The notes beneath the pieces were generated by a model that was not told the DNA's origin, ran no database searches, and saw only the letters and a program-made list of their open reading frames with translations. Positions 17,833 through 50,799 of a stretch of 64,000 bases of DNA are shown one piece after another. Numbering within the stretch: position 1 is the first letter of the stretch; each line of letters opens with the position of its first letter. Origin of the DNA: Chitinophagaceae bacterium (GTDB lineage: Bacteria > Bacteroidota > Bacteroidia > Chitinophagales > Chitinophagaceae); assembly GCA_040509495.1 (NCBI GenBank), contig JBEVKW010000172.1:4887-68886 (forward strand). Direction: 5' to 3'. Both the position numbers and the translations under genes were made by a program.

Positions 17833-18273
17833 CTAAAACTTCTGAATAATAATTACTCCGATGATGATCAGGAACATACCACCCATCCTCCAGATATTGA
17901 TGCTGTGTTGCTCCGCTACCAGGATCTTGAAATGATCAAACACCACGGCGATCACCATCTGCCCCGCCACTACCAGTCCGAATGTGAGCGCAGGCCCTAT
18001 CCGTGGAAATGCCAGCATGGTGATTGTTACAAAGAAAGCGCCCAGCGCGCCGCCGAGCCATGCATAGCCAGGTGCTGTTTTTATTCCAACCCAGGTAACT
18101 TCCTGTTTTGTGATGAGTACATACAGCAACAGGGAGACAGCGCCTACAAAAAAAGATAGCATCGATGCATACAGGGGGCTGTCAATCGATTTTCCCAGCC
18201 GGATATTCACTCCCGCCTGTATAGGCAACAGCATACCCGAAACAAAGGCAAGAAAGATCCAAAGTGTTTTCAT
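17833..18273 (-). CDS. Small DMT-superfamily membrane protein (DUF606/YdcZ-like)
   Basis: 146 aa and very hydrophobic (MKTLWIFLAFVSGMLLPIQAGVNIRLG...), with five predicted helices. It resembles YdcZ-type half transporters. Confidence 0.65.
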   Translation of the reverse strand: MKTLWIFLAFVSGMLLPIQAGVNIRLGKSIDSPLYASMLSFFVGAVSLLLYVLITKQEVTWVGIKTAPGYAWLGGALGAFFVTITMLAFPRIGPALTFGLVVAGQMVIAVVFDHFKILVAEQHSINIWRMGGMFLIIIGVIIIQKF

Positions 18274-18442: not shown

Positions 18443-19138
18443 CTAATGCTTTAACATATCCTGTGCATACTGGATCCCTACTCCATATGAACCGCCAAAT
18501 CTTTTGATCAGATCGGTTACGCCTTTATAAGTCTCGCTTCTGGCCCAATCGCGTTGCAGCTCGAGAATATACTGCATAGCCGTCATTGGCTTTACACCTG
18601 CCTGTATCATCCTGTTGACAGCCATTTCATGCGCCTCTCTGCTTACATCACCGCTTGCATCAGTGATCACATACACGTCGAACCCTTCTGCTTTTGCGGA
18701 TAAGGCCGGCCCAACAATACATACGCTTGTCCATAGTCCCGCAAACACGAGCTTCTTTTTATTTTTCGCCACAATGGCTTTTTGAGCATTCAGATCTTCC
18801 CAGCAATTCATGGTTGTTCTGTCGATACTGAGATTCGCCGCGTAGAATTCAGTGATCTCCGGGAATACCGGACCGCTGAATGTTTTGGCAGCTACAGTAG
18901 TAACAACCGTTGGAATATTAAATATTTTAGACGCCCCGGCAAGAATGCCTGCATTGTTTCTCAAAACTTCCATTTCGATATTCTTTGTGGCAAAACCCAT
19001 TTGGCTTTGATGATCCACCAGTACCAGCGCATGATTTAGCGGATTCAGCAACTCGGGAGATGGTTTTTGCGCATACGACTGTACAGTAAAAACTGTGGTA
19101 AAAAAAAGTACTGCTATTGAATTGATTGTTCTTTTCAT
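18443..19138 (-). CDS. Isochorismatase-family cysteine hydrolase with a signal peptide (paralog of 50910..51611)
   Basis: Signal-like N-terminus ending YAQKPSP. VLVDHQ carries the Asp and GLWTSVCIVGPA the catalytic Cys context. By eye about two thirds of residues are identical to the product of 50910..51611. Confidence 0.8.
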   Translation of the reverse strand: MKRTINSIAVLFFTTVFTVQSYAQKPSPELLNPLNHALVLVDHQSQMGFATKNIEMEVLRNNAGILAGASKIFNIPTVVTTVAAKTFSGPVFPEITEFYAANLSIDRTTMNCWEDLNAQKAIVAKNKKKLVFAGLWTSVCIVGPALSAKAEGFDVYVITDASGDVSREAHEMAVNRMIQAGVKPMTAMQYILELQRDWARSETYKGVTDLIKRFGGSYGVGIQYAQDMLKH

Positions 19139-19202
19139 AATGTCTGTTTGGTTTGATTTGTTTTGGTTAATCTTAAAAGAAACCTACCCTTAACTCCTTC
19201 AA

Positions 19203-19426
19203 CTGGCCGGCATAGTTTCCCGCAGATGACGCAGATTTTGACAGCCTTTCTCAGGAGATGTTTTTCTGTTTCTGTCATGTTTACCGTTTATGATGCAGAT
19301 GGCGCAGATAATTTCATTACATCCTGTAATGATCTGTGGTATCTGTGTTACCGAAAAGCAGCGATCCAGAAAAGCGGCTACCTCAGCTACAGCAAAGGAG
19401 AACATGCGACATCTGGGGGAAATTAC
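19203..19426. repeat. CGCAGAT-rich palindromic intergenic element (MITE/REP-like), long copy
   Basis: The left arm ctggccggcatagtttcccgcagatgacgcagat (19203-19236) pairs with the right arm catgcgacatctgggggaaattac (19403-19426), about 16 of 19 core positions. There are inner inverted gcagatggcgcagata / atctgtggtatctgt repeats and a central attaca-tcc-tgtaat hairpin (19316-19330). Confidence 0.7.
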
Positions 19427-19473
19427 AGCAATCAATCAAAATGGTGTTCTTAACGGCAGGTTTAAATACCTGG

Positions 19474-19671
19474 TCAATCTGTTGCATCGTCAGTCTTCTT
19501 CAGCTGCAACAGCTTCGCCTCTTCCTGTGCAAGCACAGGCCCCCACAAGCTATCCCCGCATTCGTCCGGCAAATTGGGAATCGGTTCTACCTGTTGCCGC
19601 AAGCCTGCTTTCTGCTTTTCGCCATCGCCCGAATGCTGTATAGGATCAATGTTGGGATCTTTCTTGTCCAT
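19474..19671 (-). CDS. Possible small hydrophilic protein (65 aa), function unknown
   Basis: The ATG is preceded by an A-rich stretch (aaaaacaaaaaaagat), 62 nt downstream of the hydrolase stop at 19734. The product is low-complexity and acidic/basic. There is no homology evidence. Confidence 0.25.
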   Translation of the reverse strand: MDKKDPNIDPIQHSGDGEKQKAGLRQQVEPIPNLPDECGDSLWGPVLAQEEAKLLQLKKTDDATD

Positions 19672-19733
19672 ATCTTTTTTTGTTTTTAGAAAATAAATTG
19701 GAATGAGAAGGCCAGGTACTGTAAGGTCGTTTC

Positions 19734-20645
19734 TTACTCAGCGGTTTGTTCTGCCTGAAGTTTGGTGGTTGATGTGCGCGACACTTTCCTGTCAAGGAAA
19801 TCCCTGATCGTTGAAGCGATCTCTCCGCAGAAACTTTCGAGGGCAAAGTGACCCGTTGGATATAAATGGAATTCAAGATTCTTCACATCCTTTTTATAGG
19901 CCTCAGCGCCCACGCCCGGGAAAATATAATCGTCTTTACCGTATACGATCAGCATCTCCGGATCGTATTTCCGCAAATACGCCTGCCAGTTGGGATATTG
20001 CTTTACATTATTCCTGTAATCATAAAACATAGCGATCTGTATATCGTCATTTTCGGGCCGAAGCAGGTGGCGCAGATCGATCTCCCAGTTGTCAGGAGAG
20101 ATCACATCCGTATCAGGTACATTATGCGTGTATTGCCATTTCAGTCCTTCGGGGCTATGAAAGGCCCTGCATTTCTCAATAGCATCCTGGTCATTTCTGT
20201 CTTTCCACAATGCTTTGATCGGATCCCAGAAAGTTTCCAGGCCTTCTTCATAGCAACAACCGTTTTGCACGATCAGCGACTCGATTTTTTCCGGATATTT
20301 TGATGCCAGTGTCCAGCCGACTGGTGCGCCGTAATCCATCAGGTAAAGGCTGTACTTTTCAATTCCCAGTTGATCGAGCAGGCCTTCTACAATGGCAGCA
20401 AAATTACTGAACGAGTATTCAAACGCTGCGATAGGTGGCTGTTCACTACGGCCATATCCCGGATAGTCTGGCGCGATCAAGTGATACCTGTCTGACAGAT
20501 CATTGATCAGGTTGCGGAACATATGTGAGGAAGTAGGATATCCGTGCAGCAATACAAGTGTGGGTGCATCAGCCGGACCAGCTTCCCTGAAAAAAATCTC
20601 CACTCCATTTACAGTTAAAAATCTGTACTGTGTTTTGTTTGTCAT
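19734..20645 (-). CDS. Alpha/beta hydrolase (epoxide-hydrolase/haloalkane-dehalogenase-like)
   Basis: VNGVEIFFREAGPADAPTLVLLHGYPTSSHMFRNLI...APDYPGYGRSE and the nucleophile elbow LMDYGAP. It is a paralog of 21538..22416. Confidence 0.8.
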   Translation of the reverse strand: MTNKTQYRFLTVNGVEIFFREAGPADAPTLVLLHGYPTSSHMFRNLINDLSDRYHLIAPDYPGYGRSEQPPIAAFEYSFSNFAAIVEGLLDQLGIEKYSLYLMDYGAPVGWTLASKYPEKIESLIVQNGCCYEEGLETFWDPIKALWKDRNDQDAIEKCRAFHSPEGLKWQYTHNVPDTDVISPDNWEIDLRHLLRPENDDIQIAMFYDYRNNVKQYPNWQAYLRKYDPEMLIVYGKDDYIFPGVGAEAYKKDVKNLEFHLYPTGHFALESFCGEIASTIRDFLDRKVSRTSTTKLQAEQTAE

Positions 20646-20688
20646 CTTTTTAAATTTTATTGTTAGAAAATATAATTGGTTGATTGGT

Positions 20689-21495
20689 TTATTTTTCGCC
20701 CGCAGCTTTTAAAATAACTTTGGCTACTTCTTCAGGTTTTGATAACATGGAGACGTGACTTGCCGGAAGATGCGTAGTGATAGCACCGATGTTCTTCGCC
20801 ATTTCCTTCTCGAGTTGCGGTGAAATGATCTGGTCATTGTCTGATACGATGTAATAAGAGGGTTTGTTCTTCCATGCAGGCTTGGTGATCTTAGCGCCAA
20901 GTGTACTTACATGAAAACGGCCCTGCACTGCTGCAATATTCTTCGCTTCCTGCGGCGGCAGGTCTTGTGCAAAATACCTGACCACTGTTTCTTCTTTTAA
21001 ACGGATATAACCATCGGTCACCACCGGATCGCTCAATCCCGGAACACCAGGCACCTTCCTCACCTCGTGCGCATCTTTGCTGAGGCTTTCGATGCTTTGT
21101 CCCGCATCAGGTGCATAGGCTGCTACATACACAAGCGCTTTCACTTTTTCCGCATTCCCTGCTTCCGTAATAACAACGCCACCCCATGAATGACCAACGA
21201 GGATAACATCACCCTGAACTTCTGCAAGGGCTCTTTCTGTAAAAGCCACATCGTCGCTTAAAGAGGTAAGCGGGTTCTGCACACTGATGGTTTGATAACC
21301 TTTCTTTTGCAGGATCGGTATCACTTTGTTCCATGATGAACCGTCGGCAAATGCACCGTGTACCAATACAATGGTCGGCTTGCCTGCAGGATCCTGTGTT
21401 GTTGAGGGTTTACTTATATCGGCCAGGTAAAGACCAGATAGTAAAGAGAAAATCAGGGCGATGCTGCCCAGGTAGTTTGATCTCAGCTTTTTCAT
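20689..21495 (-). CDS. Secreted alpha/beta hydrolase
   Basis: Signal peptide, PTIVLVHGAFADGSSW and VGHSWGG (GxSxG). Confidence 0.8.
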   Translation of the reverse strand: MKKLRSNYLGSIALIFSLLSGLYLADISKPSTTQDPAGKPTIVLVHGAFADGSSWNKVIPILQKKGYQTISVQNPLTSLSDDVAFTERALAEVQGDVILVGHSWGGVVITEAGNAEKVKALVYVAAYAPDAGQSIESLSKDAHEVRKVPGVPGLSDPVVTDGYIRLKEETVVRYFAQDLPPQEAKNIAAVQGRFHVSTLGAKITKPAWKNKPSYYIVSDNDQIISPQLEKEMAKNIGAITTHLPASHVSMLSKPEEVAKVILKAAGEK

Positions 21496-21537
21496 TTTGC
21501 GTTTTTTGGTTTGATGAATGGTTATTGATCGTACCGC

Positions 21538-22416
21538 TCACAATGTGTTGCTTGTTTTGCGGTCATAAATGAAACGATGTATCAACTCTGCCACATACTG
21601 GTGATGCTCTTCGAGCAGGCAATGTCCTCCGTCGATCTGCACTATTTCTGCAGCAGGAAGGTCTTTTTTATACGCCTCTGCTCCTGCCGCGATGAACATC
21701 GCATCATTCTTTCCCCAGAGCACCAGTGTTTCAGGCAATGAGGTCCTCAAATATTCTTGCCATTCGGGGTATTTCAGATAATTATGCTGGTAATCGCGGA
21801 AGAGGGCCAATTGGATTGTATCGTTTCCCGGCCTGTCGAGATAATACTGATCCGTGATATAGCTATCGGGATTGACTGTAGCAGGATCACCCGCACCGTG
21901 CAGGTATTGCCATTTGGTAGCATCCAGGCTTAAGAAAAATCGAACAGCTTTTTCATTTTCCTCATCCGGTTGTTGTGCGTACTGCGTCAGTGGTTGCAAT
22001 AATGACCCCAACCCTTCTGCATACGCATTTGCATTTTGAATGATCAGTGCGCGGAAAAGCCCCGGCCGGCGGACGGCAATTCTCATTCCTACTGGTCCGC
22101 CATAATCCTGCATATAAAGTATGATGTTGTTTAGTTGAAGCTCATCGATAAACCGTTCGATCACTATCGAAAGGTTATCAAATGTGTAAGTGAATTCCTT
22201 CACATCCGGCGCATGGCTCTGTCCAAATCCGGGGTAGTCCGGCGCTATGAGGTGAAAGGAATCCGACAGTTCCCTGATCAGATCCCTGAACATATGCGAG
22301 GAAGACGGGAACCCGTGTAATAAAAGCAATGTGGGCTGATCTTTGCTGCCCGCTTCACGATAAAAAATATCGATACCATTGATGGCTACCGTTCGGTAGA
22401 ATATTTTGTTTTTCAT
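21538..22416 (-). CDS. Alpha/beta hydrolase (epoxide-hydrolase-like), paralog of 19734..20645
   Basis: INGIDIFYREAGSKDQPTLLLLHGFPSSSHMFRDLI...APDYPGFGQS and MQDYGGP. Confidence 0.8.
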   Translation of the reverse strand: MKNKIFYRTVAINGIDIFYREAGSKDQPTLLLLHGFPSSSHMFRDLIRELSDSFHLIAPDYPGFGQSHAPDVKEFTYTFDNLSIVIERFIDELQLNNIILYMQDYGGPVGMRIAVRRPGLFRALIIQNANAYAEGLGSLLQPLTQYAQQPDEENEKAVRFFLSLDATKWQYLHGAGDPATVNPDSYITDQYYLDRPGNDTIQLALFRDYQHNYLKYPEWQEYLRTSLPETLVLWGKNDAMFIAAGAEAYKKDLPAAEIVQIDGGHCLLEEHHQYVAELIHRFIYDRKTSNTL

Positions 22417-22456
22417 CTTTTGTTTTTCTTTGTCGATAATTTTTTTGATCGCTCTC

Positions 22457-23344
22457 CTATGCCGGATAAACTTCCAGGTTGGCTAACTCATACTTCTTCA
22501 CTTCGGAAAAATTCTTTCCGCTTCCTTTTTTAAAGAACTTGCTGAAATGAGCATAGTCGCTGAAGCCAAGATCGCAGGCCACTTCTTTAAGACTGGCACC
22601 GGTGAGATTCACTTTCCTGATGGCCTCCATGATGACCCGTCTCCGGATATGTGAGCTGGCAGACTTTCCTGTTGCCTTTTTGATCGCAAGGTTCAGGTAA
22701 CTGGGAGTAATGGAAAGCAGGGCTGCATAGTCGGACACCTTTTTGTTGGTTCTGAAATTCTTTTCCAGCAGAACATTGAACCGCTGGATCAGTAAGAACT
22801 TTCTTCCATCATCGGGATCGTCACGCAGCCGGTTGATCTTTCTCATCAGGTTGAACAGTAACACGTTCATAAATCCGCTCAGGATCTGCAGCTTGAAATT
22901 GCTTTGTGTCTCGAACTCTACGCGCATCATCTCGCACAACTTTATACTCTCATACATCGCTGTTTCTTCTAACCTGATCACGTCTTTCTGCAAAGACATT
23001 ACCTGGAACGCCGGAAAATACAAACCGGCAAACTCCCTGTCGCCGCTGAGGATAAGCGCCTGGTTAAACCGTATCAGGAAGCCCTCAGTATCTTTACCTG
23101 TTTCAACCCGGTTATACCTGTTGCGCGATGTGCAGTAAAAACTATTGGCAGAAAGTAGCGGCCTGCTTTCCGGTAATGCAAGTGTTGCTTTGCCGCGCGA
23201 GACCAGGCAGATCTCAAACATATCCTCTCCTACAGGTGCGTCTTGCAGATCTGGAAGGTTTGAAAGGGGTTGTATGCTGAAATAAGCATACTGACCGGGC
23301 ATTTTAAAAGCCGGAGGAGCATCGGCTGTAAAGATTTTCTTCAT
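22457..23344 (-). CDS. AraC family transcriptional regulator
   Basis: C-terminal double HTH (VSDYAALLSITPSYLNLAIKKATGKSASSHIRRRVIMEAIRKV...ACDLGFSDYAHFSKFFKK) and an N-terminal cupin-like sensor region. It is embedded in the hydrolase operon. Confidence 0.85.
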   Translation of the reverse strand: MKKIFTADAPPAFKMPGQYAYFSIQPLSNLPDLQDAPVGEDMFEICLVSRGKATLALPESRPLLSANSFYCTSRNRYNRVETGKDTEGFLIRFNQALILSGDREFAGLYFPAFQVMSLQKDVIRLEETAMYESIKLCEMMRVEFETQSNFKLQILSGFMNVLLFNLMRKINRLRDDPDDGRKFLLIQRFNVLLEKNFRTNKKVSDYAALLSITPSYLNLAIKKATGKSASSHIRRRVIMEAIRKVNLTGASLKEVACDLGFSDYAHFSKFFKKGSGKNFSEVKKYELANLEVYPA

Positions 23345-23348
23345 TGCA

Positions 23349-24191
23349 TTAAAGTCTTTGAGTGAGCCAGCTGATTATATCATTTAAAACAACCTCATTA
23401 TCGAGGTCGTTCAACAGATCATGATAATGTCCTTCATACAACTTCAGCTCCCGGTCAATGGAAGAAACATGTTGCATGATGTACTTGCTTCCCGAGGGCT
23501 TTGTTGCCCTGTCTGCCGTTCCATGAAGAAGCAAGAGAGGGAGTGTGATCCGGCTGATCTCTTTCTTCATAAAGGCTGATGCCAGCAGCAGTTGCTGCAT
23601 CGTTTTAACGGGTTGCTTCTCATTGATCGTTAGCGGATCATTTGTCATCGCATTCACAACAGCCATATCTCGGGAGAAGTCGGCATTCTTCAATTGGATC
23701 AGCTTTGCATGCGGAATAAAATGAGCCAGCATTTTTATAATGCCCAGTGCAAAACCGGGAGCTGGCAACTGAAAGGCAATGCTCTCAGATATGAGGCCCT
23801 GTAACTTATCTTGATAAAGAATTGCATACACTGAGGCGAAGACACTGCCGGCACTATGTCCGAATAAAAAAATGGGTAACGGCGGCTGTGAGGTCGCGAT
23901 CCTGACTAATTCATTAATGTCAGCAATAATATCGCGATAGTCGTTGATGTAATAACGTTCACCGTCGGAATGGCCCCGCCCCCGTAGATCCAGTGCATAC
24001 ACATCAAAATCATTTTCCGTTAACCGGAGAGCCAGCTTTTGAAAATAATAGCTATGTGAGTTCAGGCCATGAACAAGCAACACAATTCCTTTTGGATTGT
24101 TGTTCGTCTTCCATACACGATAAAAAATAGTCTGTCCATCATTTGTTTTAAAGTCAGCAGTAAACTGGCTGTCGTTTGGATGCATAAGCAT
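23349..24191 (-). CDS. Alpha/beta hydrolase (monoacylglycerol-lipase/lysophospholipase-like)
   Basis: VLLVHGLNSHSYYF, DLRGRGHSDG and GHSAGS (GxSxG). It is the first gene of a tightly spaced operon (gaps of 4-43 nt). Confidence 0.8.
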   Translation of the reverse strand: MLMHPNDSQFTADFKTNDGQTIFYRVWKTNNNPKGIVLLVHGLNSHSYYFQKLALRLTENDFDVYALDLRGRGHSDGERYYINDYRDIIADINELVRIATSQPPLPIFLFGHSAGSVFASVYAILYQDKLQGLISESIAFQLPAPGFALGIIKMLAHFIPHAKLIQLKNADFSRDMAVVNAMTNDPLTINEKQPVKTMQQLLLASAFMKKEISRITLPLLLLHGTADRATKPSGSKYIMQHVSSIDRELKLYEGHYHDLLNDLDNEVVLNDIISWLTQRL

Positions 24192-24218
24192 TAGTTAAGC
24201 TTGAGGGTGGTGATTGTT

Positions 24219-24242
24219 GCTATACAGATCGTCTGTTATAGC
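24219..24242. promoter_or_regulatory. Near-palindrome GCTATACAGAtcgTCTGtTATAGC just upstream of the hydrolase operon
   Basis: It lies 28-51 nt upstream of the start at 24191. Outer 6-bp and inner 4-bp arms are complementary, with a one-nucleotide bulge. Confidence 0.3.
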
Positions 24243-24381
24243 AGATCACTTGTTTGCATCCAGTTAGTCCATTAATATGCCACTTCACAAATAAAAACAG
24301 ACCATACAGATTGACTGCTTCAATCCGTTCTTAGTCAGTGTCTTAATAAAGTGTGTGCAGATCGGGGGAATATAAAAATGA

Positions 24382-24414
24382 AATAGCAACTCCATTTTAT
24401 TGGGAGTTGCTATT
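24382..24414 (-). terminator. Rho-independent-type terminator downstream of the sigma54 regulator gene (possibly bidirectional)
   Basis: A perfect 12-bp stem aatagcaactcc / ggagttgctatt with a 9-nt loop. On the minus strand it is followed by ttcatttttatatt, and on the plus strand it is flanked by a run of A. Confidence 0.6.
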
Positions 24415-24563
24415 AAAAAAATCCAAAAATTTTGGAGATAGTATTTGCGTTATTTTGACGAGGTGGTAGTAACTGGAGTTGAAAGCCAGTACCGGAACGT
24501 GAAGTTTTTTTCAGTGACCATCAAAAAAACAACACCGGTTTGTCCGCCATCAATCAGCATGCT

Positions 24564-26531
24564 TTAATAAGCGTGCTGATCATCTGAAATATCTTCCTTG
24601 GTGATGTTCAGCTTTGCTATCTTGGCTTCAAGCGTTGTCGGTTTGATATTTAATAATTCCGCTGCCCCTTTGACTCCGCGGATCCGTCCTTTAACTTTTT
24701 TCAGAACGGAGATCATGTAAGATCTTTCGGTCTCCCGCTGGATCTGTTTGATATCTTCAAACGAGTTCGTCAGCCCGTTGCCAACCTCTTTTTCCTCTAT
24801 CCGGGCTAACACCCTTTTTAATTCGAGTTTTGATTTTCCGTCATTCAGGATCACGGACTGTTCCAGAATATTTCCCAGCTCGCGGATATTACCGGGCCAG
24901 TCATAGGCTGCGAGTTCATCGGCCATTGACGGCGAAATGCCATGAAAGGGCTTATTGAATTCCCTGCAAAATTTATCTGCGAAATATAATGCAAGCGCAT
25001 ATATATCACTTTTCCTTTCACGTAAAGGAGGAAGCGTGATGGGAAAGGCATTCAACCGATAATAAAGATCCAGCCTGAACCTTCCCTGTGCTACTTCCTG
25101 CTCCAGATTCTTGTTGGTCGCTGCCACAACGCGTACATTAACCTTGATCGGAGATGAACCACCTACATATTCTATCTCCTTTTCCTGTAAAACACGCAGC
25201 AGTTTTACCTGCATGGCCAGTGGCAATTCCCCGATCTCATCCAGGAAAATGGTTCCGCCCTGCGCCTGCTCGAATTTACCTTTCCTTTTTTCACTGGCGC
25301 CTGTGAACGCGCCCTTCTGATGCCCAAATAATTCAGACTCGATCAGTGTAGGCGGAATGGCGCCACAATTCACTTTGACGAAAGGTTCTTTTTCCCTTCC
25401 TGAAAGGGTGTGGATCAGTTGGGCCACTTTCTCTTTGCCTGTTCCACTTTCTCCGAATATTAAGACCGACGTATTGTAGGGCGCTACCTGTGCCGTAAGA
25501 TCAAGGGCAGACAGCAATAAGTGATGGCTGCCGATAATGCTTTTAAATCTCACATCATTGACCTCCTGATGGAGCAATTGCCCGGAATTATCGGGAAGAG
25601 CCAATAAAGAAGCCGCAGCATTTGAATACAATCTTTCCGCAACCTCAGTAAGGCAATCATTCAATCTGCTTAATAACGCAACATGATCGTCTGTATAAAT
25701 GTTTCCCTGCCGACTGTAAAAGAAGTACTGCACTGACCGTCCATCACTCAGGTTGACGGTGAGAGAAAGATATGACTGCAAATTGAACGCCTGCGTCATC
25801 AAACCAGACAAAGTCGATACCACTTCTTGCTTCTCCGTTCCGCCCCTTGAGATGCCTGTTTCACCAGCTTCAGCAATGCCCGGGTCTGCCGGAACCTCAC
25901 TCTCTTTCATCCCCGTGATGATCAGCAACTCTTTTTTACTGATGAACTGGTATTCATCAAATCCTATACGCAGGTATCCCTTGTCAATTGAAGGGTTGCT
26001 GACCGTTTCTTTGTATGCCGAAATAAAAAGATCAAATGGAATAGAAGACTGCAGTTGCCTGACGATCTTCAAGATCCGTTGGTCAACTGAAATAGCTTCA
26101 CTGCTGGCTTTTTTGAGTTTATCCTCGAGCAACGCTTCCTGTCGGAGTTTTGATTGAGTGCTTTGTTCATGACGGTACCACGCAATGTCCAGCGTTACGA
26201 GAAGGTCTTTTTTGCGGAATGGTTTTACCAAAAAACCGTAAGGGTCGGTTGCTTTGGCTTCTTCCAGGATTTTCTGGCTGGAATTAGCCGATAAAAAAAC
26301 GAAGGGGATATTTTCAGCCCGCAGCTCTTTTGCTATTTCAATACCAGAAGAATTTCGTTCCAGGCGGATATCGAGCAGAACCATATCCGGCTTGTTGCGT
26401 GCGATCATTTCTGCCGATTCATCTGCGGAAGCTGCAATACCCGTTACATTGTAGCCAGCCCCCGTTAAGATCAACCGGAGATCATTCGCTACGATAAATT
26501 CGTCTTCTACTATCAATAAAGTCTTACTCAT
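24564..26531 (-). CDS. Sigma54-dependent response regulator (REC, GAF-like middle domain, AAA+ sigma54-interaction domain, Fis-type HTH)
   Basis: REC (LLIVEDEFIV...MVLLDIRL), Walker A GESGTGKE, GAFTGA motif (GHQKGAFTGA), and a C-terminal HTH (GAAELLNIKPTTLEAKIAKL). Confidence 0.9.
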   Translation of the reverse strand: MSKTLLIVEDEFIVANDLRLILTGAGYNVTGIAASADESAEMIARNKPDMVLLDIRLERNSSGIEIAKELRAENIPFVFLSANSSQKILEEAKATDPYGFLVKPFRKKDLLVTLDIAWYRHEQSTQSKLRQEALLEDKLKKASSEAISVDQRILKIVRQLQSSIPFDLFISAYKETVSNPSIDKGYLRIGFDEYQFISKKELLIITGMKESEVPADPGIAEAGETGISRGGTEKQEVVSTLSGLMTQAFNLQSYLSLTVNLSDGRSVQYFFYSRQGNIYTDDHVALLSRLNDCLTEVAERLYSNAAASLLALPDNSGQLLHQEVNDVRFKSIIGSHHLLLSALDLTAQVAPYNTSVLIFGESGTGKEKVAQLIHTLSGREKEPFVKVNCGAIPPTLIESELFGHQKGAFTGASEKRKGKFEQAQGGTIFLDEIGELPLAMQVKLLRVLQEKEIEYVGGSSPIKVNVRVVAATNKNLEQEVAQGRFRLDLYYRLNAFPITLPPLRERKSDIYALALYFADKFCREFNKPFHGISPSMADELAAYDWPGNIRELGNILEQSVILNDGKSKLELKRVLARIEEKEVGNGLTNSFEDIKQIQRETERSYMISVLKKVKGRIRGVKGAAELLNIKPTTLEAKIAKLNITKEDISDDQHAY

Positions 26532-29014
26532 TAAATCGCCATTATTTCGTTAACTGTGGATTTCTCCACACGCTCGACAGTCGCTTTTCGGAATCGCACC
26601 GTTATATGCAATCCGTTATCGCTTTTAAAGGTCAGAATCCCGCCAAGCTGTTTTGCAAGTCCGCGCATCAGATCAAAACCAAGTGAATTATGCCGGGATA
26701 TATCAAGTCCTGCCGGCAAGCCCACTCCGTTATCGACTATTTGCAGCACTAAACGATCATCTGCATCCTGATGCAATGTTAAGCGTACGGTTCCTTCCCT
26801 GCTTCCCGGGAAAGCATACTTCATCACATTAACGATACATTCGTTAATGATCAGGCCCAGAGGGATTGCCTGCGATACATCAAGGTCCAGTGGCTCGATC
26901 TCCTGTTCGAAAATGATCCTTTTTTCTGTATCAAAACTTTCCTGTACATAAGATACCAACTCATTAATGTAATCCTGCATGGCAATACAGGACATGTTAT
27001 CTGAAAGATACAATTTCTGATGGATCAATGCCATGGCCTGCATCCGGCGTTGACTGTCATTGATCGCAGTCCTTGCATCCCTGTTATCGATATATACTGA
27101 TTGTGAGTTCAACAGGCTGATCACGATCTGCAGATTGTTCTTCACCCGGTGGTGGATCTCTTTCAACAGCCATTCTTTATCGTCAACAAGGTCCTGCAGT
27201 TGTTCATTTTTCCGGCTGATCACTTTATTGGCTCCCTGTTTCAACCTGTTTTGGCGGTATAACAGTCCCGCGATGATCAGGACTGTAATAATGCCGGCAA
27301 TGGTGAGGTTTCTCAGCAGAGCGGCCCGTTTCGATCTTTCCTTTTCCAGAGCAGCCTGTTGCGTTAACTGGGAGATCTGACCTTCTTTTTCCTGTATCTG
27401 GTATAACACCTGGAGCTCTTCTGCCTGCCGGATCTTTGTTACTTTAAAAGTTGCATCCAGCAGTGTAACGTATTTTTTGTAATGTGCCACAGCCGATCGG
27501 TCATCCCCCAGTATAGAATCGATGGTGATCAGGGTGCGGTAGAGATCGAGGTCAGCGGTTAGCGGCCGTAGTCTTGAGCGCGGGGCCAGGAGATGAGTAT
27601 CCAGGATTTTCCTTGCTTTCCGGTATTCTCCTTTTTTCATTAAAAGAAAGCCAGTCAGCTCTTCAATGTCCGTTCTCCGGAAAGGTGGCCTGAATGTTTC
27701 AGCAATGGTCTCCAGTGAATCCATTTTTGCCAGGTGCCACTCAACCATTTTCAGTTGATTATTGTACAAATAGCCATAAGCAAATGCATAATGATAGGTG
27801 AACTGATCCGCCAGTGTTTCCGGCGGGGTCACCTGCGTTGAAATATTCTTTACCATTTCCAGGGCCTCCTTGCTCTTTCCATTCTGCGACATCCGATAAA
27901 CGACGGCGATCATCTGGTTATAGACCGTTGGATTCCGCTGTCGCAGGAAGTGTTGGATCGCTTTTTCGATCACAGCGAAACTTTCCTCTTCCCGGCCTTC
28001 TGACGACAGCATGAGAGACAGGTTACTGTGAAAGTATCCCCACCCTATACTGTCAAGGCAATTCTCTGACACTTTGATCATTTCAAGTGTGTATCGCAAT
28101 GGTTCGCCAAATTTGCCCATGAATGTGTTTACCATCGACAATGCCTGCGCATTATAGTGTATATACGGAAACTGGATTGACTCCGCGAGGCGATATGCCT
28201 GCTCCAATACCTCATGGGCAGTATCCAGTTGACCCGAGGCCGTGAACAAATAACCGGCATCTGTCAGCGCATTGATCTCTCCTTCCTTATTACCCAGGCT
28301 GTGACAGAGGGCGGCAGCTGCGCGGGTGTCATTGATCTTACCAGGAAAACTCGCACCCGTTGGCGGTGTATACCTGCTGCGATAAGCCAGTGCTTTTGCT
28401 TCTGTTTGTTTATCCCCCGCATACCTGCACTGCCTGATCAGCCGGGCATATATCGAATCGCCCTCGGAGTTACCGGCCTGTAAATACATTTTTCCCAGCA
28501 GGCAAAGGGCCTGCCGGCCCATCCCGGGTTCGTTAAGTTTGCGGCTTTCAGTGATCACCTGCTGAAGATAATGTTCGACGCTATCGCGGAAATAGGTATA
28601 GCTGTTCCGCTGAAACGCGTAATACGATCCCAGCAGTAGCAACCGCTGCAGGCGCTTCCGGCCGCTTGCCGCCGACAACTGACGCACACCGCTCGCCGGG
28701 TCTTTCCTGTCTATCCATTGCGATTCCTTGAAAAGCTCCTGGTCTCCGAAACCTTCTGCCAGTATAGAGAAGCGGCTGAGGCCGAGCGACCGACTGGCCT
28801 TGAACAAAGCACTGTCGAGATCCACCTGACCCTCATTTACCACATTGATAAAAGTGGAACTTAATAGCAGATACAGTCGCTGCCAGGACTCCTTATCCTC
28901 CTGTGGATGGTGATAGGTATAGCTTGTTAAAGCGTTTGGAGTGGAAGATGCGGGTTGGGCACCCACCTGTGTCATCAAGCTGACCAGCAGCCATATCAAA
29001 GCTAATCTGTACAT
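26531..29014 (-). CDS. Sensor histidine kinase: signal peptide, extracytoplasmic TPR region, one TM, HisKA_2 plus HATPase_c
   Basis: MYRLALIWLLVSLMTQVGAQ signal, a TPR-like region of about 540 aa, TM LTIAGIITVLIIAGLLY, H-box EIHHRVKNNLQIVISLL, and the ATPase region DNGVGLP. The stop overlaps the regulator start by 1 nt (TAATG). Confidence 0.85.
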   Translation of the reverse strand: MYRLALIWLLVSLMTQVGAQPASSTPNALTSYTYHHPQEDKESWQRLYLLLSSTFINVVNEGQVDLDSALFKASRSLGLSRFSILAEGFGDQELFKESQWIDRKDPASGVRQLSAASGRKRLQRLLLLGSYYAFQRNSYTYFRDSVEHYLQQVITESRKLNEPGMGRQALCLLGKMYLQAGNSEGDSIYARLIRQCRYAGDKQTEAKALAYRSRYTPPTGASFPGKINDTRAAAALCHSLGNKEGEINALTDAGYLFTASGQLDTAHEVLEQAYRLAESIQFPYIHYNAQALSMVNTFMGKFGEPLRYTLEMIKVSENCLDSIGWGYFHSNLSLMLSSEGREEESFAVIEKAIQHFLRQRNPTVYNQMIAVVYRMSQNGKSKEALEMVKNISTQVTPPETLADQFTYHYAFAYGYLYNNQLKMVEWHLAKMDSLETIAETFRPPFRRTDIEELTGFLLMKKGEYRKARKILDTHLLAPRSRLRPLTADLDLYRTLITIDSILGDDRSAVAHYKKYVTLLDATFKVTKIRQAEELQVLYQIQEKEGQISQLTQQAALEKERSKRAALLRNLTIAGIITVLIIAGLLYRQNRLKQGANKVISRKNEQLQDLVDDKEWLLKEIHHRVKNNLQIVISLLNSQSVYIDNRDARTAINDSQRRMQAMALIHQKLYLSDNMSCIAMQDYINELVSYVQESFDTEKRIIFEQEIEPLDLDVSQAIPLGLIINECIVNVMKYAFPGSREGTVRLTLHQDADDRLVLQIVDNGVGLPAGLDISRHNSLGFDLMRGLAKQLGGILTFKSDNGLHITVRFRKATVERVEKSTVNEIMAI

Positions 29015-47375: not shown

Positions 47376-47379
47376 TTGA

Positions 47380-49632: not shown

Positions 49633-49831
49633 AATTTTTACTAAGCTATTCTTTTTATACTAATCTCCTGCCAGGAAGTATTTCCCGCATTGCCACAAGA
49701 TTCCGTTACCGGTACCGGCGTGGCAGAGAAGGGCGTGTTATTGTTGTATGAGGGCGCAGGGGTCCTGCAATCCAGGGGTTCATTATCACTATCCTTTTTT
49801 TAAGGAATGATCTTTTTTACCACGCACAGAC

Positions 49832-49845
49832 CCCTGTATACAGGG
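49832..49845. promoter_or_regulatory. Perfect 14-bp palindrome CCCTGTATACAGGG in the divergent kinase/hydrolase intergenic region
   Basis: It lies between the HK2 start (49632) and the hydrolase start (50014). It is a candidate regulator-binding site (UAS or operator). Confidence 0.35.
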
Positions 49846-49904
49846 CCCGTATAAGAACCTGCATGGCGTTTCTGCGACGAAAGCTCGTTGCCCGTTTCGT
49901 TCAA

Positions 49905-49920
49905 CGACGATATATCGTCG
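49905..49920. promoter_or_regulatory. Perfect 16-bp palindrome CGACGATATATCGTCG upstream of the alpha/beta hydrolase gene
   Basis: It lies about 95-110 nt upstream of the ATG at 50014. Confidence 0.35.
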
Positions 49921-50013
49921 GAGAACCGCCACCTGTATCGCTCATTGCTCCTGATTATCAATCATGGTTGTTATGGAATGAGATTCGTACCTGTTCTTGC
50001 ATCAACCAATGTT

Positions 50014-50799
50014 ATGACCCAACCGATCACTTCCAAAACCATACTGTTCATTACCGGTGCGTTTATCAGTCACCATTGCTGGGATAATTGGATCAGGTAC
50101 TTCCAGGAGAAGGGTTACCACGCTGTGGCGATACCCTGGCCGCAAAAAGATGCGCCGGCTGCGGTATTGCGTCATCGTCATCCGGATGCGGATGTGGCGG
50201 CCATCCGCCTCGCACAATTGACCAGCTTTTATCATGATGCGGCTTTGTCTCTACCGGAAAAACCCATCATTATCGGCCATTCTCTTGGCGGACTCATTGC
50301 CCAGCTGCTATTACAACAGGGCGTGGCTGATGCCGCTGTCGCCATTCATTCCGTACCGCCGCAGGGTGTGTTCAGTTTTAGTCTTCCCTTTCTTATTGCC
50401 GGCTGGGGTCCGCTTGGATATTTTACTGATGCCAGGCAAACCTTCCTGATGAGTTTTAAGCAATGGAAATATGCATTCGTTAATGGACTGCCAGTCCAGG
50501 TGCAGCAGGAAAGCTATGAATCAGCTATCCCGGAATCAAAACGGGTTGTACGTGATACGATCACCCGCGCGGCAAGGGTCGACTTTACACGACCGCACCG
50601 CCCACTCCTTTTCCTGGCCGGTTCAAAGGATCATGCGATTCCTTCTTCACTCAATTATAAAAACTACCGTCGTTATACAGATCAACAGTCACACACCTCT
50701 TTTAAATTATTTGAAGGACGTACACACTATGTTTTAAACCAGGAAGAATGGCCGGAGACCGCGGAATATATTCTGAGCTGGCTTTCCGGTATACAATGA
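50014..50799 (+). CDS. Alpha/beta hydrolase
   Basis: The internal ATG at 50014 (MTQPITSKTILFITGAF...) is preferred over the track start at 49888. It has GHSLGG (GxSxG). Confidence 0.75.
   Translation: MTQPITSKTILFITGAFISHHCWDNWIRYFQEKGYHAVAIPWPQKDAPAAVLRHRHPDADVAAIRLAQLTSFYHDAALSLPEKPIIIGHSLGGLIAQLLLQQGVADAAVAIHSVPPQGVFSFSLPFLIAGWGPLGYFTDARQTFLMSFKQWKYAFVNGLPVQVQQESYESAIPESKRVVRDTITRAARVDFTRPHRPLLFLAGSKDHAIPSSLNYKNYRRYTDQQSHTSFKLFEGRTHYVLNQEEWPETAEYILSWLSGIQ

What the first reader, a model, noticed from the sequence alone, without database searches (positions are those of the whole stretch)
18443..29014. Module 1: TPR sensor kinase plus sigma54 activator, followed by a four-hydrolase/AraC operon and a secreted isochorismatase
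All genes are on the minus strand. The kinase (extracytoplasmic TPR, HisKA_2) is translationally coupled (TAATG) to a REC-GAF-like-AAA+(GAFTGA)-HTH activator. A strong terminator hairpin follows. Then comes a tight operon of alpha/beta hydrolase, AraC and three more alpha/beta hydrolases (gaps of 4-43 nt). After a repeat-containing spacer comes a signal-peptide-bearing isochorismatase-like hydrolase. The same gene set recurs at 45438-54592, which argues for a functional unit rather than chance adjacency. The function is unknown. My inference is a regulated, partly secreted or periplasmic esterase/lactonase/amidase battery for some xenobiotic or signal molecule.
Basis: partly seen in the sequence, partly recalled or inferred. 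Interest (0 to 1): 0.65.

Follow-up and report, generated by a model that had tools for sequence, protein, structure and literature searches.

The report
Two-component/sigma-54 regulators beside a hydrolase island
A soil Bacteroidota (Terrimonas-like) genome carries two copies of an uncharacterised sensor kinase and sigma-54 activator pair next to a set of hydrolases that is conserved across families. The genes are real and the linkage recurs, but it looks more like a stress or detoxification island than a pathway for one compound, and control of the hydrolases by the pair is not shown.

Summary
Every gene, strand, gap, the TAATG overlap and the hairpin are confirmed. The activator is REC, GAF-like, AAA+ (GAFTGA), HTH.

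Refinements:
- Two of the four "hydrolases" (ABH2, ABH4) have an Asp nucleophile (epoxide-hydrolase/dehalogenase class). ABH1 resembles monoacylglycerol lipases. ABH3 is a secreted Ser esterase.
- The isochorismatase is a signal-peptide-bearing YcaC-like Cys hydrolase.
- The "repeat spacer" is a truncated small ORF plus a replacement of a PNPOx gene that relatives keep.
- Module 2 is an ancient paralogue (kinase 31%, activator 45%, isochorismatase 68%). Its hydrolases are not orthologous, it adds a porin, and it holds an ABH3-like pseudogene.

The enzyme set recurs in Pedobacter (LysR, no kinase/activator) and in Flavobacterium (with the pair). Six of six homologous regulator pairs sit beside alpha/beta hydrolases, usually with stress or redox-type genes (AhpC-like peroxiredoxin, Dps, DJ-1, epoxide hydrolases).

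No canonical -24/-12 promoter precedes the window's cargo genes. Module 2 has a palindrome (ACGATATATCGT) shared with Flavobacteriia isochorismatase operons, plus twin -24/-12-like motifs 24 nt before two start codons. In Flavobacterium, a sigma-54-type site before the isochorismatase gene occurs in 10 of 15 loci with the kinase and 0 of 15 without.

Best reading: an envelope or electrophile stress detoxification island under an uncharacterised two-component/sigma-54 system. This is inferred, not demonstrated.

The parts
26531..29014 (-). Sensor histidine kinase HK1. Order: leader peptide, about 540-aa extracytoplasmic TPR-like domain, one TM (residues 564-582), HisKA_2 (H-box EIHHRVKNN), HATPase_c.
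   Evidence: Pfam HisKA_2 2e-25, HATPase_c and TPR_12. Hydropathy and sequence. The closest NCBIfam model is the stress kinase PhyK, kinase core only, 124 bits against a cut-off of 750.
24564..26531 (-). Sigma-54 enhancer-binding response regulator EBP1. Order: REC (Asp54), coiled coil, GAF-like domain, AAA+ with GAFTGA at residue 407, weak HTH_8. Its start overlaps the kinase stop (TAATG).
   Evidence: Pfam Sigma54_activat 4.8e-72, Response_reg 1e-18, HTH_8 17 bits against a cut-off of 22. GAFTGA. TAATG. D54 is invariant in 37 homologues. AlphaFold model pLDDT 86. The top Foldseek matches are a REC-GAF dual-sensor kinase, 6oaq.
24382..24414 (-). Terminator-like hairpin after EBP1: 12-bp stem, 9-nt loop, U-rich tail.
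   Evidence: Folds at -16.3 kcal/mol, z = -4.2. Kept in T. ginsenosidimutans with one G-U change.
24192..24563 (-). Regulatory spacer upstream of ABH1. It holds the conserved palindrome TCCAAAATTTTTGGA (24422-24436), an ATCTG-N4-GTCTG repeat (24298-24311), the -24/-12-like TGGCAT-N5-TGGAC (24267-24282) and the palindrome TCTGCTATAACAGA (24232-24245).
   Evidence: These blocks stay conserved in the more distant relative L001 while the flanks diverge. The -24/-12-like site lacks the -12 C and scores only 6.1 bits, rank 229 in the window.
23349..24191 (-). ABH1: cytoplasmic Ser hydrolase (GHSAG) resembling monoacylglycerol lipases and lysophospholipases.
   Evidence: Pfam Hydrolase_4 5e-62. PDB 6eic, M. 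tuberculosis monoglyceride lipase, 5e-41. Motif.
22457..23344 (-). AraC-family regulator inside the operon, 4 nt after ABH1.
   Evidence: Pfam HTH_18 1e-15. The best NCBIfam model is HpaA, 98 bits against a cut-off of 275.
21538..22416 (-). ABH2: cytoplasmic alpha/beta hydrolase with an Asp nucleophile (HGFP oxyanion motif, QDYGG elbow), of the epoxide-hydrolase/dehalogenase class.
   Evidence: Pfam Abhydrolase_1. PDB haloalkane dehalogenases about 2e-21, N-terminal half only. Motifs. NCBIfam dehalogenase models 105 bits against a cut-off of 241. 45% identical to ABH4.
20689..21495 (-). ABH3: exported Ser esterase (GHSWG) with an N-terminal hydrophobic leader. Distantly similar to pyrethroid hydrolase and SABP2-type esterases.
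   Evidence: Pfam Abhydrolase_6 2e-23. Leader at residues 9-27. PDB 5y57 5e-10.
19734..20645 (-). ABH4: paralogue of ABH2 with an Asp nucleophile (MDYGA). It is the most conserved cargo enzyme across families, 71-72% identical in Pedobacter and Flavobacterium.
19474..19671 (-). Small ORF of 65 aa, a C-terminally truncated version of a 78-aa ORF kept in relatives.
   Evidence: Called as a 78-aa gene in L001 and L002. Aligned. tblastn 68% over 50 aa.
19139..19473 (-). Replacement scar. About 300 bp of unrelated, repeat-bearing DNA lies where relatives carry a 204-aa PNPOx-family gene. It contains three ATCTG-N4-ATCTG repeats (19223-19236, 19296-19309, 19332-19345).
   Evidence: PNPOx_N gene in L001 and L002. 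No homology in the alignment. No PNPOx remnant by tblastn. Repeats.
18443..19138 (-). ISO1: exported YcaC-like isochorismatase-family Cys hydrolase (Asp42, Arg106, Cys140; leader ...SYA|QK).
   Evidence: Pfam Isochorismatase 1e-23. PDB YcaC 1yac 5e-33, with the Cys region aligned. YcaC active-site residues Asp19, Arg84 and Cys118 from PMC4519933. NCBIfam YcaC 133 bits against a cut-off of 310.
17833..18273 (-).
   Evidence: Pfam DMT_YdcZ 6.5e-40. It holds the same position in L001, and a YdcZ gene lies inside the ISO-Amidohydro_3-DoxX-porin-Dps operon of L087.
45438..49632 (-). Module 2 regulators: HK2 (47380-49632) and EBP2 (45438-47375), 4 nt apart. They are paralogues of HK1 and EBP1 at 31% and 45% identity.
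49633..50013 (.). Module 2 divergent control region. It holds the perfect palindrome ACGATATATCGT (49907-49918) and twin motifs, TGGAATGAGATTCGTA (49974-49989, +) and TGGCAGGAGATTAGTA (49658-49673, -). Each motif ends 24 nt before an ATG: 50014 for the likely true start of ABHa, and 49632 for HK2.
   Evidence: The palindrome is unique in the window at 0 mismatches. The same CGATATATCG lies upstream of isochorismatase operons in 31 Flavobacterium and Aquimarina loci. Twin motifs and their geometry.
49888..54592 (+). Module 2 cargo: ABHa (Ser hydrolase; ORF from 49888, likely start 50014, to 50799), ISO2 (50910-51611, exported), an ABH3-like pseudogene (51642-51994, two frames, about 140 codons missing), ABHb (52065-53078, Asp nucleophile, lipoprotein-like leader) and an Alginate_exp-family outer-membrane barrel (53201-54592).

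Best explanation
Module 1 is a composite stress or detoxification island. A set of hydrolases that travels together in Bacteroidota sits next to a two-component/sigma-54 regulatory pair, and probably partly under its control. The hydrolases are an exported YcaC-like Cys hydrolase, an exported Ser esterase, a cytoplasmic lipase-like Ser hydrolase and two cytoplasmic Asp-nucleophile hydrolases of the epoxide-hydrolase/dehalogenase class. Relatives also carry a PNPOx-family flavoprotein.

Proposed mechanism:
1. The kinase reads a cue in the periplasm with its TPR domain. This step is inferred.
2. It phosphorylates Asp54 of the activator. The domain logic is shown; the chemistry is inferred.
3. 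The activator's GAF-like domain may add a second, cytoplasmic input. The fold is shown; a ligand is unknown.
4. The AAA+ domain with its GAFTGA loop remodels sigma-54 RNA polymerase at -24/-12-type promoters. This is shown only as candidate, non-canonical sites in this genome.
5. An internal AraC-family regulator gives the hydrolase operon a second, local layer of control. This is inferred.

The likely inducers and substrates are exogenous reactive or electrophilic organic compounds, such as epoxides, quinone- or phenol-derived esters and amides, rather than one nutrient. This follows from the gene company these families keep.

Module 2 is an old paralogous island with the same logic. There the cis-evidence is better: an upstream palindrome shared with Flavobacteriia, plus twin -24/-12-like motifs in front of both divergent operons.
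For: - Gene content and architecture.
- REC plus GAF-like fold.
- The order of the island is conserved in two relatives.
- The enzyme set is conserved at 53-72% identity in Pedobacter and 42-71% in Flavobacterium, whereas the kinase/activator pairs found next to it (Flavobacterium only) are only 32-47% identical.
- From the regulator side, 6 of 6 loci with a homologous activator have alpha/beta hydrolase genes within a few kb. In 5 of them the TPR-HisKA_2 kinase is called alongside; the Dyadobacter locus L090 shows none. Companion genes include AhpC-type peroxiredoxin, Dps, DJ-1, ABM, EHN epoxide hydrolases, aldehyde dehydrogenase, SDR, cupin, YceI, Amidohydro_3 and a porin.
- From the isochorismatase side (81 loci), the partners are Amidohydro_3, an Alginate_exp porin, DoxX, Dps, YceI, pirin and glyoxalase, across Bacteroidota, Proteobacteria and Myxococcota.
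- In Flavobacterium module-2-like loci, a sigma-54-type site of at least 10 bits lies 49-51 nt before the isochorismatase ATG in 10 of 15 loci that carry kinase and activator, and in 0 of 15 that lack the kinase. My own Fisher arithmetic gives about 1e-4, uncorrected for phylogeny.
- Ulvibacter and Aquimarina have 16.3- and 13.5-bit -24/-12 sites in front of isochorismatase or porin operons that lie divergent from an activator gene.
- The window's module 2 carries the same palindrome as those operons, and two near-identical TGG-N3-GAGATT-N-GTA motifs, each 24 nt before a start codon.
- The candidate TGGCAT-N5-TGGAC upstream of ABH1 lies in a block conserved in L001.
Against: - No canonical TGGCAC-N5-TTGC site precedes any cargo gene in the window. 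The best sites in the module spacers rank 62nd to 229th among all window positions.
- The Terrimonas candidates lack the -12 C (GA or GT instead of GC).
- A terminator-like hairpin separates the activator from the hydrolase operon, and the operon has its own AraC regulator.
- The same enzymes occur with a LysR gene and no kinase/activator in Pedobacter. The isochorismatase-porin core occurs without the pair in Chryseobacterium and Proteobacteria, and with an AraC gene in the third T. ginsenosidimutans locus.
- The stress or detoxification reading rests on guilt by association. No substrate is known for YcaC (PMC4519933) or for any of these hydrolases.
- The Flavobacterium correlation is not phylogenetically independent.
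- rpoN itself is not in the window.
Confidence: 0.45

Rival explanations
1. There is no regulatory link in module 1. The kinase/activator pair controls unlinked sigma-54 promoters elsewhere in the genome. The hydrolase operon is an independent unit driven by its own AraC-family regulator, and the isochorismatase by whatever promoter lies in the replacement scar. Adjacency reflects shared residence in a variable accessory or stress region.
For: - Terminator-like hairpin between the activator and ABH1.
- AraC gene inside the operon.
- No canonical -24/-12 site in the spacers.
- The same enzymes occur with LysR and without the pair in Pedobacter.
- Regulators diverge much faster than cargo, 32-47% against 42-72%.
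- An IS200/RAYT-like gene flanks HK1, and the locus shows a gene replacement. This suggests a plastic region.
Against: - The same regulator family lies beside alpha/beta hydrolases in 6 of 6 independent loci and beside isochorismatase/hydrolase genes in Terrimonas (twice) and in Flavobacterium (two architectures).
- The sigma-54-type site before the isochorismatase gene tracks presence of the kinase in Flavobacterium.
- Module 2 has shared cis-elements on both divergent operons.
Confidence: 0.28
2. One reading: a dedicated, regulated catabolic or degradative battery (esterase, lactonase, amidase) for one particular xenobiotic or aromatic ester. The AraC regulator senses the compound, and the kinase/activator senses it or a product outside the cell.
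For: - Several different hydrolases in one tight operon.
- The AraC regulator is most similar to HpaA, the 4-hydroxyphenylacetate regulator, but far below its cut-off.
- ABH3 is distantly similar to pyrethroid and salicylate esterases.
- Porin and exported enzymes in module 2.
- Sigma-54 activators such as XylR and DmpR control aromatic catabolism (established knowledge).
Against: - No downstream catabolic genes are in the module: no ring-cleavage, CoA-ligase, dehydrogenase or transporter set for a carbon source.
- The hydrolases belong to different mechanistic classes with no obvious pathway order.
- The cargo next to the regulator family varies widely between genomes.
- The conserved company is Dps, DoxX, YceI, peroxiredoxin, pirin and glyoxalase.
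Confidence: 0.17
3. A quorum-quenching or signal-degrading module: exported lactonases or acylases that destroy N-acyl-homoserine lactones or similar signals from neighbouring bacteria.
For: Alpha/beta hydrolases and isochorismatase-like enzymes can act as lactonases or amidases. ABH1 has a very weak hit to a UilS-type lactonase model, 30 bits against a cut-off of 400.
Against: - No match reaches any curated lactonase or acylase model.
- Only two of the six module 1 enzymes are exported.
- The neighbourhood is of the stress or redox type.
Confidence: 0.04

Closest known systems
NtrBC-type two-component systems with a sigma-54 enhancer-binding response regulator, for example ZraS/ZraR of E. coli (envelope stress; from established knowledge)
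   Same: A membrane kinase with a periplasmic sensor domain is encoded next to, and translationally coupled with, a REC-AAA+(GAFTGA)-HTH activator. In module 2 the target operon is divergent from the regulators, with an upstream palindrome about 90 nt before a -24/-12-like element.
   Different: The kinase core is HisKA_2, not HisKA. The sensor is a TPR-like domain of about 540 aa. The activator has an extra GAF-like domain between REC and AAA+. No curated NCBIfam activator model is reached. The candidate promoters in this genome lack the -12 C.
YcaC of E. coli and P. aeruginosa (PDB 1yac, 4wgf), an isochorismatase-family Cys hydrolase of unknown function
   Same: The fold family and the Asp-Arg-Cys active-site residues are kept. 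The function is likewise unknown, and the authors suggested a stress-related role (PMC4519933).
   Different: The window's protein has a signal peptide and so is exported. It scores 133 bits against the YcaC equivalog cut-off of 310. It belongs to a large separate subfamily of 229-233 aa proteins that is about 70% conserved across Bacteroidota.
MhqR, YodB and CatR quinone/electrophile regulons of Bacillus subtilis (from established knowledge; not tested here)
   Same: The same protein families recur around this isochorismatase family: DoxX (MhqP-like), Abhydrolase_2 carboxylesterase (MhqD-like), glyoxalase or ring-cleaving dioxygenase, azoreductase or WrbA-like flavoproteins (inferred from N-terminal sequences only), and nitroreductase/PNPOx-like proteins.
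   Different: The regulators are MarR-type repressors there, against a two-component/sigma-54 activator (or AraC or LysR) here. Exported enzymes and a porin are prominent here. The window's own modules lack DoxX, Dps and glyoxalase.
HWE/HisKA_2 general-stress kinases of Alphaproteobacteria (PhyK type)
   Same: PhyK is the best NCBIfam match of HK1, covering the HisKA_2 plus HATPase core.
   Different: The match is 124 bits against a cut-off of 750 and covers the kinase core only. The partner is a sigma-54 activator, not PhyR/NepR/EcfG. The sensor domain is unrelated.
Haloalkane dehalogenases and epoxide hydrolases (alpha/beta hydrolases with an Asp nucleophile)
   Same: ABH2, ABH4 and ABHb share the HG(F/Y)P or HGFG oxyanion motif and an Asp at the nucleophile elbow. 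Their best PDB and NCBIfam matches are dehalogenases.
   Different: Scores are well below the family cut-offs (103-107 bits against 241). Only the N-terminal core aligns. Tyr or Ile follows the Asp rather than the usual Trp. The cap-domain residues that define dehalogenase or epoxide-hydrolase chemistry were not assessed.

Membership tests
Bacterial enhancer-binding proteins (sigma-54 activators) | AAA+ Sigma54_activat domain with the GAFTGA loop | tested here: met
   PF00158 matched over 1-167 of 168 positions, E 4.8e-72. GAFTGA is at residue 407 in both EBP1 and EBP2.
Bacterial enhancer-binding proteins (sigma-54 activators) | C-terminal Fis-type HTH for binding an upstream activating sequence | tested here: inconclusive
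   EBP1 HTH_8 scores 17.1 bits, below the Pfam cut-off of 22. EBP2 scores 28.4 bits, above it.
Bacterial enhancer-binding proteins (sigma-54 activators) | Target genes preceded by a -24 GG / -12 GC promoter | tested here: inconclusive
   No canonical site lies in the window's module spacers. Non-canonical candidates are at 24267-24282, 49974-49989 and 49658-49673. Sites of 10 bits or more (GG and GC in register) lie before the orthologous isochorismatase operons in Flavobacterium, Ulvibacter and Aquimarina.
Two-component response regulators | Receiver domain with the phospho-acceptor Asp, and a cognate kinase encoded alongside | tested here: met
   Response_reg 1e-18. Asp54 is invariant in 37 homologues. 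The kinase overlaps by TAATG. The kinase is called next to the activator in 5 of 6 homologous loci; none is called beside it in the Dyadobacter locus L090.
HisKA_2 histidine kinases | HisKA_2 dimerisation/phosphotransfer domain with the H-box His, plus HATPase_c | tested here: met
   PF07568 2e-25 and PF02518 5e-9. H-box EIHHRVKNN in both kinases.
YcaC (NCBIfam NF041461 equivalog) | Score above the curated equivalog cut-off | tested here: not met
   133 bits against a cut-off of 310. It is YcaC-like, not YcaC.
YcaC-type isochorismatase-family Cys hydrolases | Asp, Arg and Cys active-site residues (Asp19, Arg84, Cys118 in YcaC) | tested here: met
   The alignment to 1yac shows the LVDHQ Asp, the DR(T) Arg and the SVC(I) Cys. 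Residue roles come from PMC4519933.
Haloalkane dehalogenase (NCBIfam NF002938, NF002043) | Score above the curated cut-off, and an Asp-Trp nucleophile elbow | tested here: not met
   105-107 bits against 241. The elbows are QDYGG and MDYGA, without Trp. The Asp nucleophile itself is present.
Monoacylglycerol lipase / lysophospholipase-like Ser hydrolases (ABH1) | Hydrolase_4 domain, GXSXG elbow, full-length similarity to solved monoglyceride lipases | tested here: met
   PF12146 5e-62 over the whole profile. 6eic 5e-41 over residues 21-280. GHSAG. Substrate specificity was not tested.
GAF domain (middle domain of the activator) | GAF fold between REC and AAA+ | tested here: inconclusive
   No Pfam GAF hit. 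The model (pLDDT 86) has a long helix followed by an alpha/beta domain. The top Foldseek hits are a REC-GAF dual-sensor kinase, E 9e-13, but TM is about 0.4 because of domain orientation. JGI names some homologues "regulator with GAF, ATPase and Fis domain".

The most novel reading that the evidence does not exclude
The TPR-HisKA_2 kinase plus REC-GAF-like sigma-54 activator may be an undescribed, Bacteroidota-wide envelope or electrophile stress signalling system. It would drive a variable, partly exported detoxification regulon: a YcaC-like Cys hydrolase, Asp-nucleophile hydrolases, esterases, a porin, and elsewhere Dps, DoxX and peroxiredoxin. It would act through an ACGATATATCGT-type upstream site and -24/-12 promoters with a relaxed -12 element. 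If so, it would give the first physiological context for the long-unexplained YcaC family.
Probability: 0.3. Interest if true: 0.62.

Novelty: new variant of a known kind. Interest (0 to 1): 0.42.

Why it matters
Sigma-54 regulons in Bacteroidota are poorly charted. A 2025 PSSM survey mentions chaperones, proteases and a few enzymes for this phylum, and a term search of its main text found no isochorismatase or hydrolase islands there (PMC12316311).

YcaC-type hydrolases are highly conserved from bacteria to fungi and have no known function (PMC4519933). The genomic company found here is a porin, Amidohydro_3, DoxX, Dps, YceI and peroxiredoxin. Together with the recurrent kinase/activator pair and its candidate cis-elements, it turns "unknown hydrolases" into a testable hypothesis about how soil Bacteroidota sense and neutralise reactive organic compounds at the envelope.

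If the regulatory link fails, the locus is an ordinary accessory cluster of hydrolases next to an orphan two-component system.

Tried and rejected
1. Canonical sigma-54 pattern and PWM scans of the window found nothing upstream of cargo genes. The best window hit (13 bits, 47530 minus strand) lies inside the 3' end of HK2.

2. Strong PWM hits in Flavobacterium loci L025, L027 and L029 (up to 17.7 bits) lie inside the Amidohydro_3 coding sequence, on a conserved peptide motif. I rejected them as coding artefacts.

3. The ATCTG-N4-RTCTG repeat has 5 hits in the window against 0.31 expected, all in module spacers, so it looked like an activator binding site. In Flavobacterium, however, the same kind of array sits in hypervariable, repeat-stuffed spacers that are present or absent between close relatives. 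I now treat it as a probable REP/MITE-like element, not as a regulatory site.

4. The generic sigma-70 promoter and terminator scan was uninformative and missed the hairpin because of its 9-nt loop.

5. Rfam and tRNA scans of the window were empty.

6. Literature searches for this kinase/activator/hydrolase combination found nothing specific.

7. I looked for the module 2 orthologue in T. ginsenosidimutans through a 233-aa isochorismatase. It turned out to be a third, AraC-linked locus of the core type.

8. The search with the activator's N-terminus returned mostly short or split proteins, and not even the window's own 655-aa protein. The regulator-side sample is therefore biased towards truncated genes.

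9. I considered an EntB/PhzD-type isochorismatase (siderophore or phenazine) reading. I rejected it because the protein is of the YcaC type, is exported, and has no biosynthetic neighbours.

Full report
**1.

All eight ORFs lie on the minus strand at the stated coordinates, and their Pfam domains are as described.

The kinase (26531-29014) has an N-terminal leader, then about 540 residues with TPR matches, then a single TM helix (residues 564-582), HisKA_2 with the H-box EIHHRVKNN, and HATPase_c. Its stop overlaps the activator's start as TAATG.

The activator (24564-26531) has a receiver domain, the Sigma54_activat AAA+ domain with GAFTGA at residue 407, a lid domain and a weak HTH_8.

A 12-bp hairpin at 24382-24414 (-16.3 kcal/mol, z = -4.2, U-rich tail) follows about 150 nt after the activator stop.

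The hydrolase/AraC genes are separated by 4, 40, 42 and 43 nt.

The organism is close to Terrimonas ginsenosidimutans. The isochorismatase is 98% identical to that of strain NA20. That genome and a metagenome contig keep the whole gene order.

**2. Refinements of the anatomy**

- *The activator's middle domain.* A model of residues 1-331, built on 37 homologues, has mean pLDDT 86. It shows a receiver, a long helix (107-143) and an alpha/beta domain. The best structural matches are a REC-GAF dual-sensor kinase, 6oaq. "GAF-like" is therefore reasonable, although Pfam sees no GAF domain.

- *The four hydrolases are not one kind.*
  - ABH1 (GHSAG) matches monoacylglycerol lipases over its full length (6eic, 5e-41).
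  - ABH3 (GHSWG) has a leader peptide and only distant esterase relatives.
  - ABH2 and ABH4 are 45% identical to each other. They carry HG(F/Y)P and an Asp at the nucleophile elbow (QDYGG, MDYGA), as epoxide hydrolases and dehalogenases do. They fall well below NCBI's dehalogenase cut-offs.

- *The isochorismatase* is of the YcaC type (1yac, 5e-33) and keeps Asp, Arg and Cys. It carries a signal peptide and scores 133 bits against the YcaC equivalog cut-off of 310.

- *The "repeat-containing spacer" (19139-19733) is a scar.* Relatives have a 78-aa ORF and a 204-aa PNPOx-family gene there. The window keeps a truncated 65-aa ORF (19474-19671). It has about 300 bp of unrelated, repeat-bearing DNA in place of PNPOx, with no remnant.

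- *A DMT_YdcZ gene (17833-18273)* downstream of the isochorismatase is probably part of the neighbourhood.

**3. Module 2 is an old paralogue, not a copy**

Identities to module 1 are 31% for the kinase, 45% for the activator and 68% for the isochorismatase. The two hydrolases of module 2 are at most 31% identical to any of module 1.

The cargo is divergent from the regulators. It lacks AraC and ends with an Alginate_exp-family outer-membrane barrel.

The "127-aa ORF" at 51611-51994 is part of a pseudogene. The N-terminus of an ABH3-like exported esterase is readable in one frame (51642-51830), and its C-terminus in another. About 140 codons are missing.

ABHb has an Asp nucleophile and a lipoprotein-like leader.

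**4. Comparative genomics from the isochorismatase side**

The survey covers eighty genome loci plus one metagenome locus.

The most constant partners of this isochorismatase subfamily are a secreted Amidohydro_3 enzyme and the Alginate_exp porin, then DoxX, Dps, pirin, glyoxalase, and here and there YceI. This holds in Bacteroidota, Alpha- and Gammaproteobacteria and Myxococcota.

T. ginsenosidimutans itself has a third locus of this core type. It begins with an AraC-family regulator gene, followed by peroxiredoxin, DsbA-like, MBL, isochorismatase, Amidohydro_3, DoxX, porin, Dps, YceI, glyoxalase and carboxylesterase (similar).

| Group | Loci with kinase/activator within 10 kb |
|---|---|
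| Terrimonas-like | 2 of 2 |
| Flavobacterium, module-1-like | 7-8 of 8 |
| Flavobacterium, module-2-like | 15 (kinase) and 22 (activator) of 31 |
| Other Bacteroidota | 3-4 of 8 |
| Pedobacter | 0 of 3 |
| Chryseobacterium | 0 of 14 |
| Proteobacteria | 0 of 10 |
| Myxococcota | activator only, 1 of 5 |

(Counts.)

The module 1 enzymes are well conserved across families:

| Enzyme | Identity to the window's protein | Found in |
|---|---|---|
| ABH4 | 71-72% | Pedobacter and Flavobacterium |
| ABH2 | 53-65% | Pedobacter and Flavobacterium |
| ABH1 | 57% | Pedobacter |
| ABH3 | 42-43% | Flavobacterium |
| Isochorismatase | about 70% | Pedobacter and Flavobacterium |

The regulators next to them are only 32-47% identical. 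In Pedobacter the set sits next to a LysR gene.

The enzymes therefore form the conserved unit. The regulator is a recurrent partner but not an obligatory one.

**5. Comparative genomics from the regulator side**

I searched with the activator's REC plus GAF-like part and inspected six loci from Spirosoma, Mucilaginibacter, Dyadobacter, a Parafilimonas-like assembly and a metagenome.

The TPR-HisKA_2 kinase accompanies the activator in five of the six. The Dyadobacter locus shows none.

All six have alpha/beta hydrolase genes within a few kb. Companions vary: EHN epoxide hydrolases, AhpC-type peroxiredoxin, Dps, DUF417, YceI, DJ-1/PfpI, ABM, cupin, SDR, aldehyde dehydrogenase, Amidohydro_3 and the porin.

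Variable cargo of this kind argues for a stress or detoxification regulon rather than a fixed catabolic pathway.

One caveat applies. The search returned mostly short or split proteins, so the sample is biased.

**6. Cis-elements**

No TGGCAC-N5-TTGC-type site lies upstream of any cargo gene. The best PWM hits in the module spacers rank 62nd to 229th in the window.

Related loci are more informative:

- In Flavobacterium module-2-like loci, a TGGCA(T/C)-N5-T(G/A)GC site of at least 10 bits lies 49-51 nt before the isochorismatase ATG. It occurs in 10 of 15 loci that carry kinase and activator, and in 0 of 15 without the kinase. By my own arithmetic, a one-sided Fisher test gives about 1e-4, not corrected for relatedness.
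- In the loci with the site, the palindrome CGATATATCG sits about 69 nt upstream of it.
- Ulvibacter has TGGCACGTAAATAGCC immediately before a pirin-isochorismatase operon that is divergent from an activator gene.
- Aquimarina has the palindrome followed by TGGCATACTCTTCGCA before a porin operon that is divergent from a kinase/activator pair.

*Module 2 of the window.* The divergent spacer contains the same palindrome, ACGATATATCGT (49907-49918), unique in 64 kb at zero mismatches. It also contains two near-identical motifs, TGGAATGAGATTCGTA (+) and TGGCAGGAGATTAGTA (-). Each ends exactly 24 nt before an ATG: 50014, the likely true start of ABHa, and 49632, the start of HK2. These motifs have the -24 GG and the -13 G in register, but T instead of C at -12.

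*Module 1 of the window.* The only candidate is TGGCAT-N5-TGGAC (24267-24282), with A at -12. It lies in a block that stays conserved in the more distant relative L001, together with two palindromes.

These are candidate sigma-54 promoters with a relaxed -12 element, not demonstrated ones.

**7. Interpretation**

The best-supported reading (confidence about 0.45) is an envelope or electrophile stress detoxification island. It is controlled in part by an uncharacterised two-component/sigma-54 system, with a local AraC layer in module 1.

The main rival (about 0.28) is that the kinase/activator pair of module 1 does not control the adjacent operon at all.

There are no downstream pathway genes, and the cargo varies between genomes.

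Quorum quenching has no specific support.

**8. Novelty**

I found nothing in the literature on this kinase/activator family or its hydrolase islands. YcaC remains without a function.

The system is a new variant of a familiar kind: a two-component sigma-54 activator with a stress or detoxification regulon. Interest is moderate. It rises if the regulatory link and the relaxed -12 promoters are confirmed, because that would place the YcaC family in a defined response.

Noticed in passing
window 1-5379 (minus strand): One open reading frame of at least 1793 codons runs off the start of the window. Near its N-terminal end it has the peptide AIIGIGCRLPGG, which I recognise from memory as typical of a type I polyketide synthase ketosynthase domain. 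No domain scan was run. The ORF list omits it because it runs off the end.
   Followed up: partly
window 29376-29933 (+): A 185-aa ORF with a weak IS200-like Y1 transposase match (REP-associated tyrosine transposase type) lies divergently just upstream of HK1. It may relate to the short repeats seen in the module spacers.
   Followed up: no
window 19223-19236, 19296-19309, 19332-19345, 24298-24311, 53175-53188: The repeat ATCTG-N4-RTCTG occurs 5 times (0.31 expected), only in spacers of the two modules. A 20-nt version (ATCTGCNNNATCTGCGGGAAMC) is shared between the ISO1 upstream region and the module 2 porin upstream region. Similar CAGAT arrays occur in hypervariable, repeat-rich spacers before dps and carboxylesterase genes in Flavobacterium. 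A REP/MITE-like element therefore seems more likely than a regulator site.
   Followed up: partly
window 51642-51994 (+): Pseudogene of an exported ABH3-like esterase in module 2. The N-terminus and C-terminus are in different frames and the middle is deleted.
   Followed up: yes
window 47515-47530 (minus strand): The best sigma-54 PWM hit in the whole window (TGGTATCGGTTTTGCA, 13 bits) lies inside the 3' end of HK2, about 140 nt upstream of the EBP2 start. It could be an internal promoter for the activator or chance.
   Followed up: no
window 39455-45222 and 54733-56276: Three Crp/Fnr-family regulators (39455-40057, 44641-45222, 55674-56276) each sit beside small redox or detoxification-type genes. 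These are a third, cytoplasmic isochorismatase (40370-41023, 36% identical to ISO1), a luciferase-like monooxygenase, pirin, a methyltransferase, a cupin and an SDR. The whole 40-56 kb stretch looks like an accessory stress or redox region.
   Followed up: partly
L084, L085, L089, L090 (activator genes at about 9-12 kb in each locus): In four of six homologous loci the activator is called as two ORFs, split between the AAA+ core and the lid/HTH part. This may be a selection bias of the search (short proteins ranked first), sequencing errors, or recurrent inactivation.
   Followed up: no
L003 8700-9000 (T. ginsenosidimutans, between ABH4 and the small ORF): About 310 bp of heptamer arrays (CGATGAC / CGATGGC and their complement) are inserted there and absent from the window and from L001. 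This is another sign that the spacer is a hotspot for repeat insertion.
   Followed up: no
window 15199-17532 (minus strand): A 777-aa fusion of a patatin-like phospholipase with an Omp85-type outer-membrane barrel lies just downstream of the module.
   Followed up: no
window 30343-31892 (minus strand): A 153-aa ORF matching only part of a type I phosphodiesterase domain lies next to a 347-aa ORF with no Pfam match. It may be a disrupted gene. An intact paralogue is at 12225-13184.
   Followed up: no
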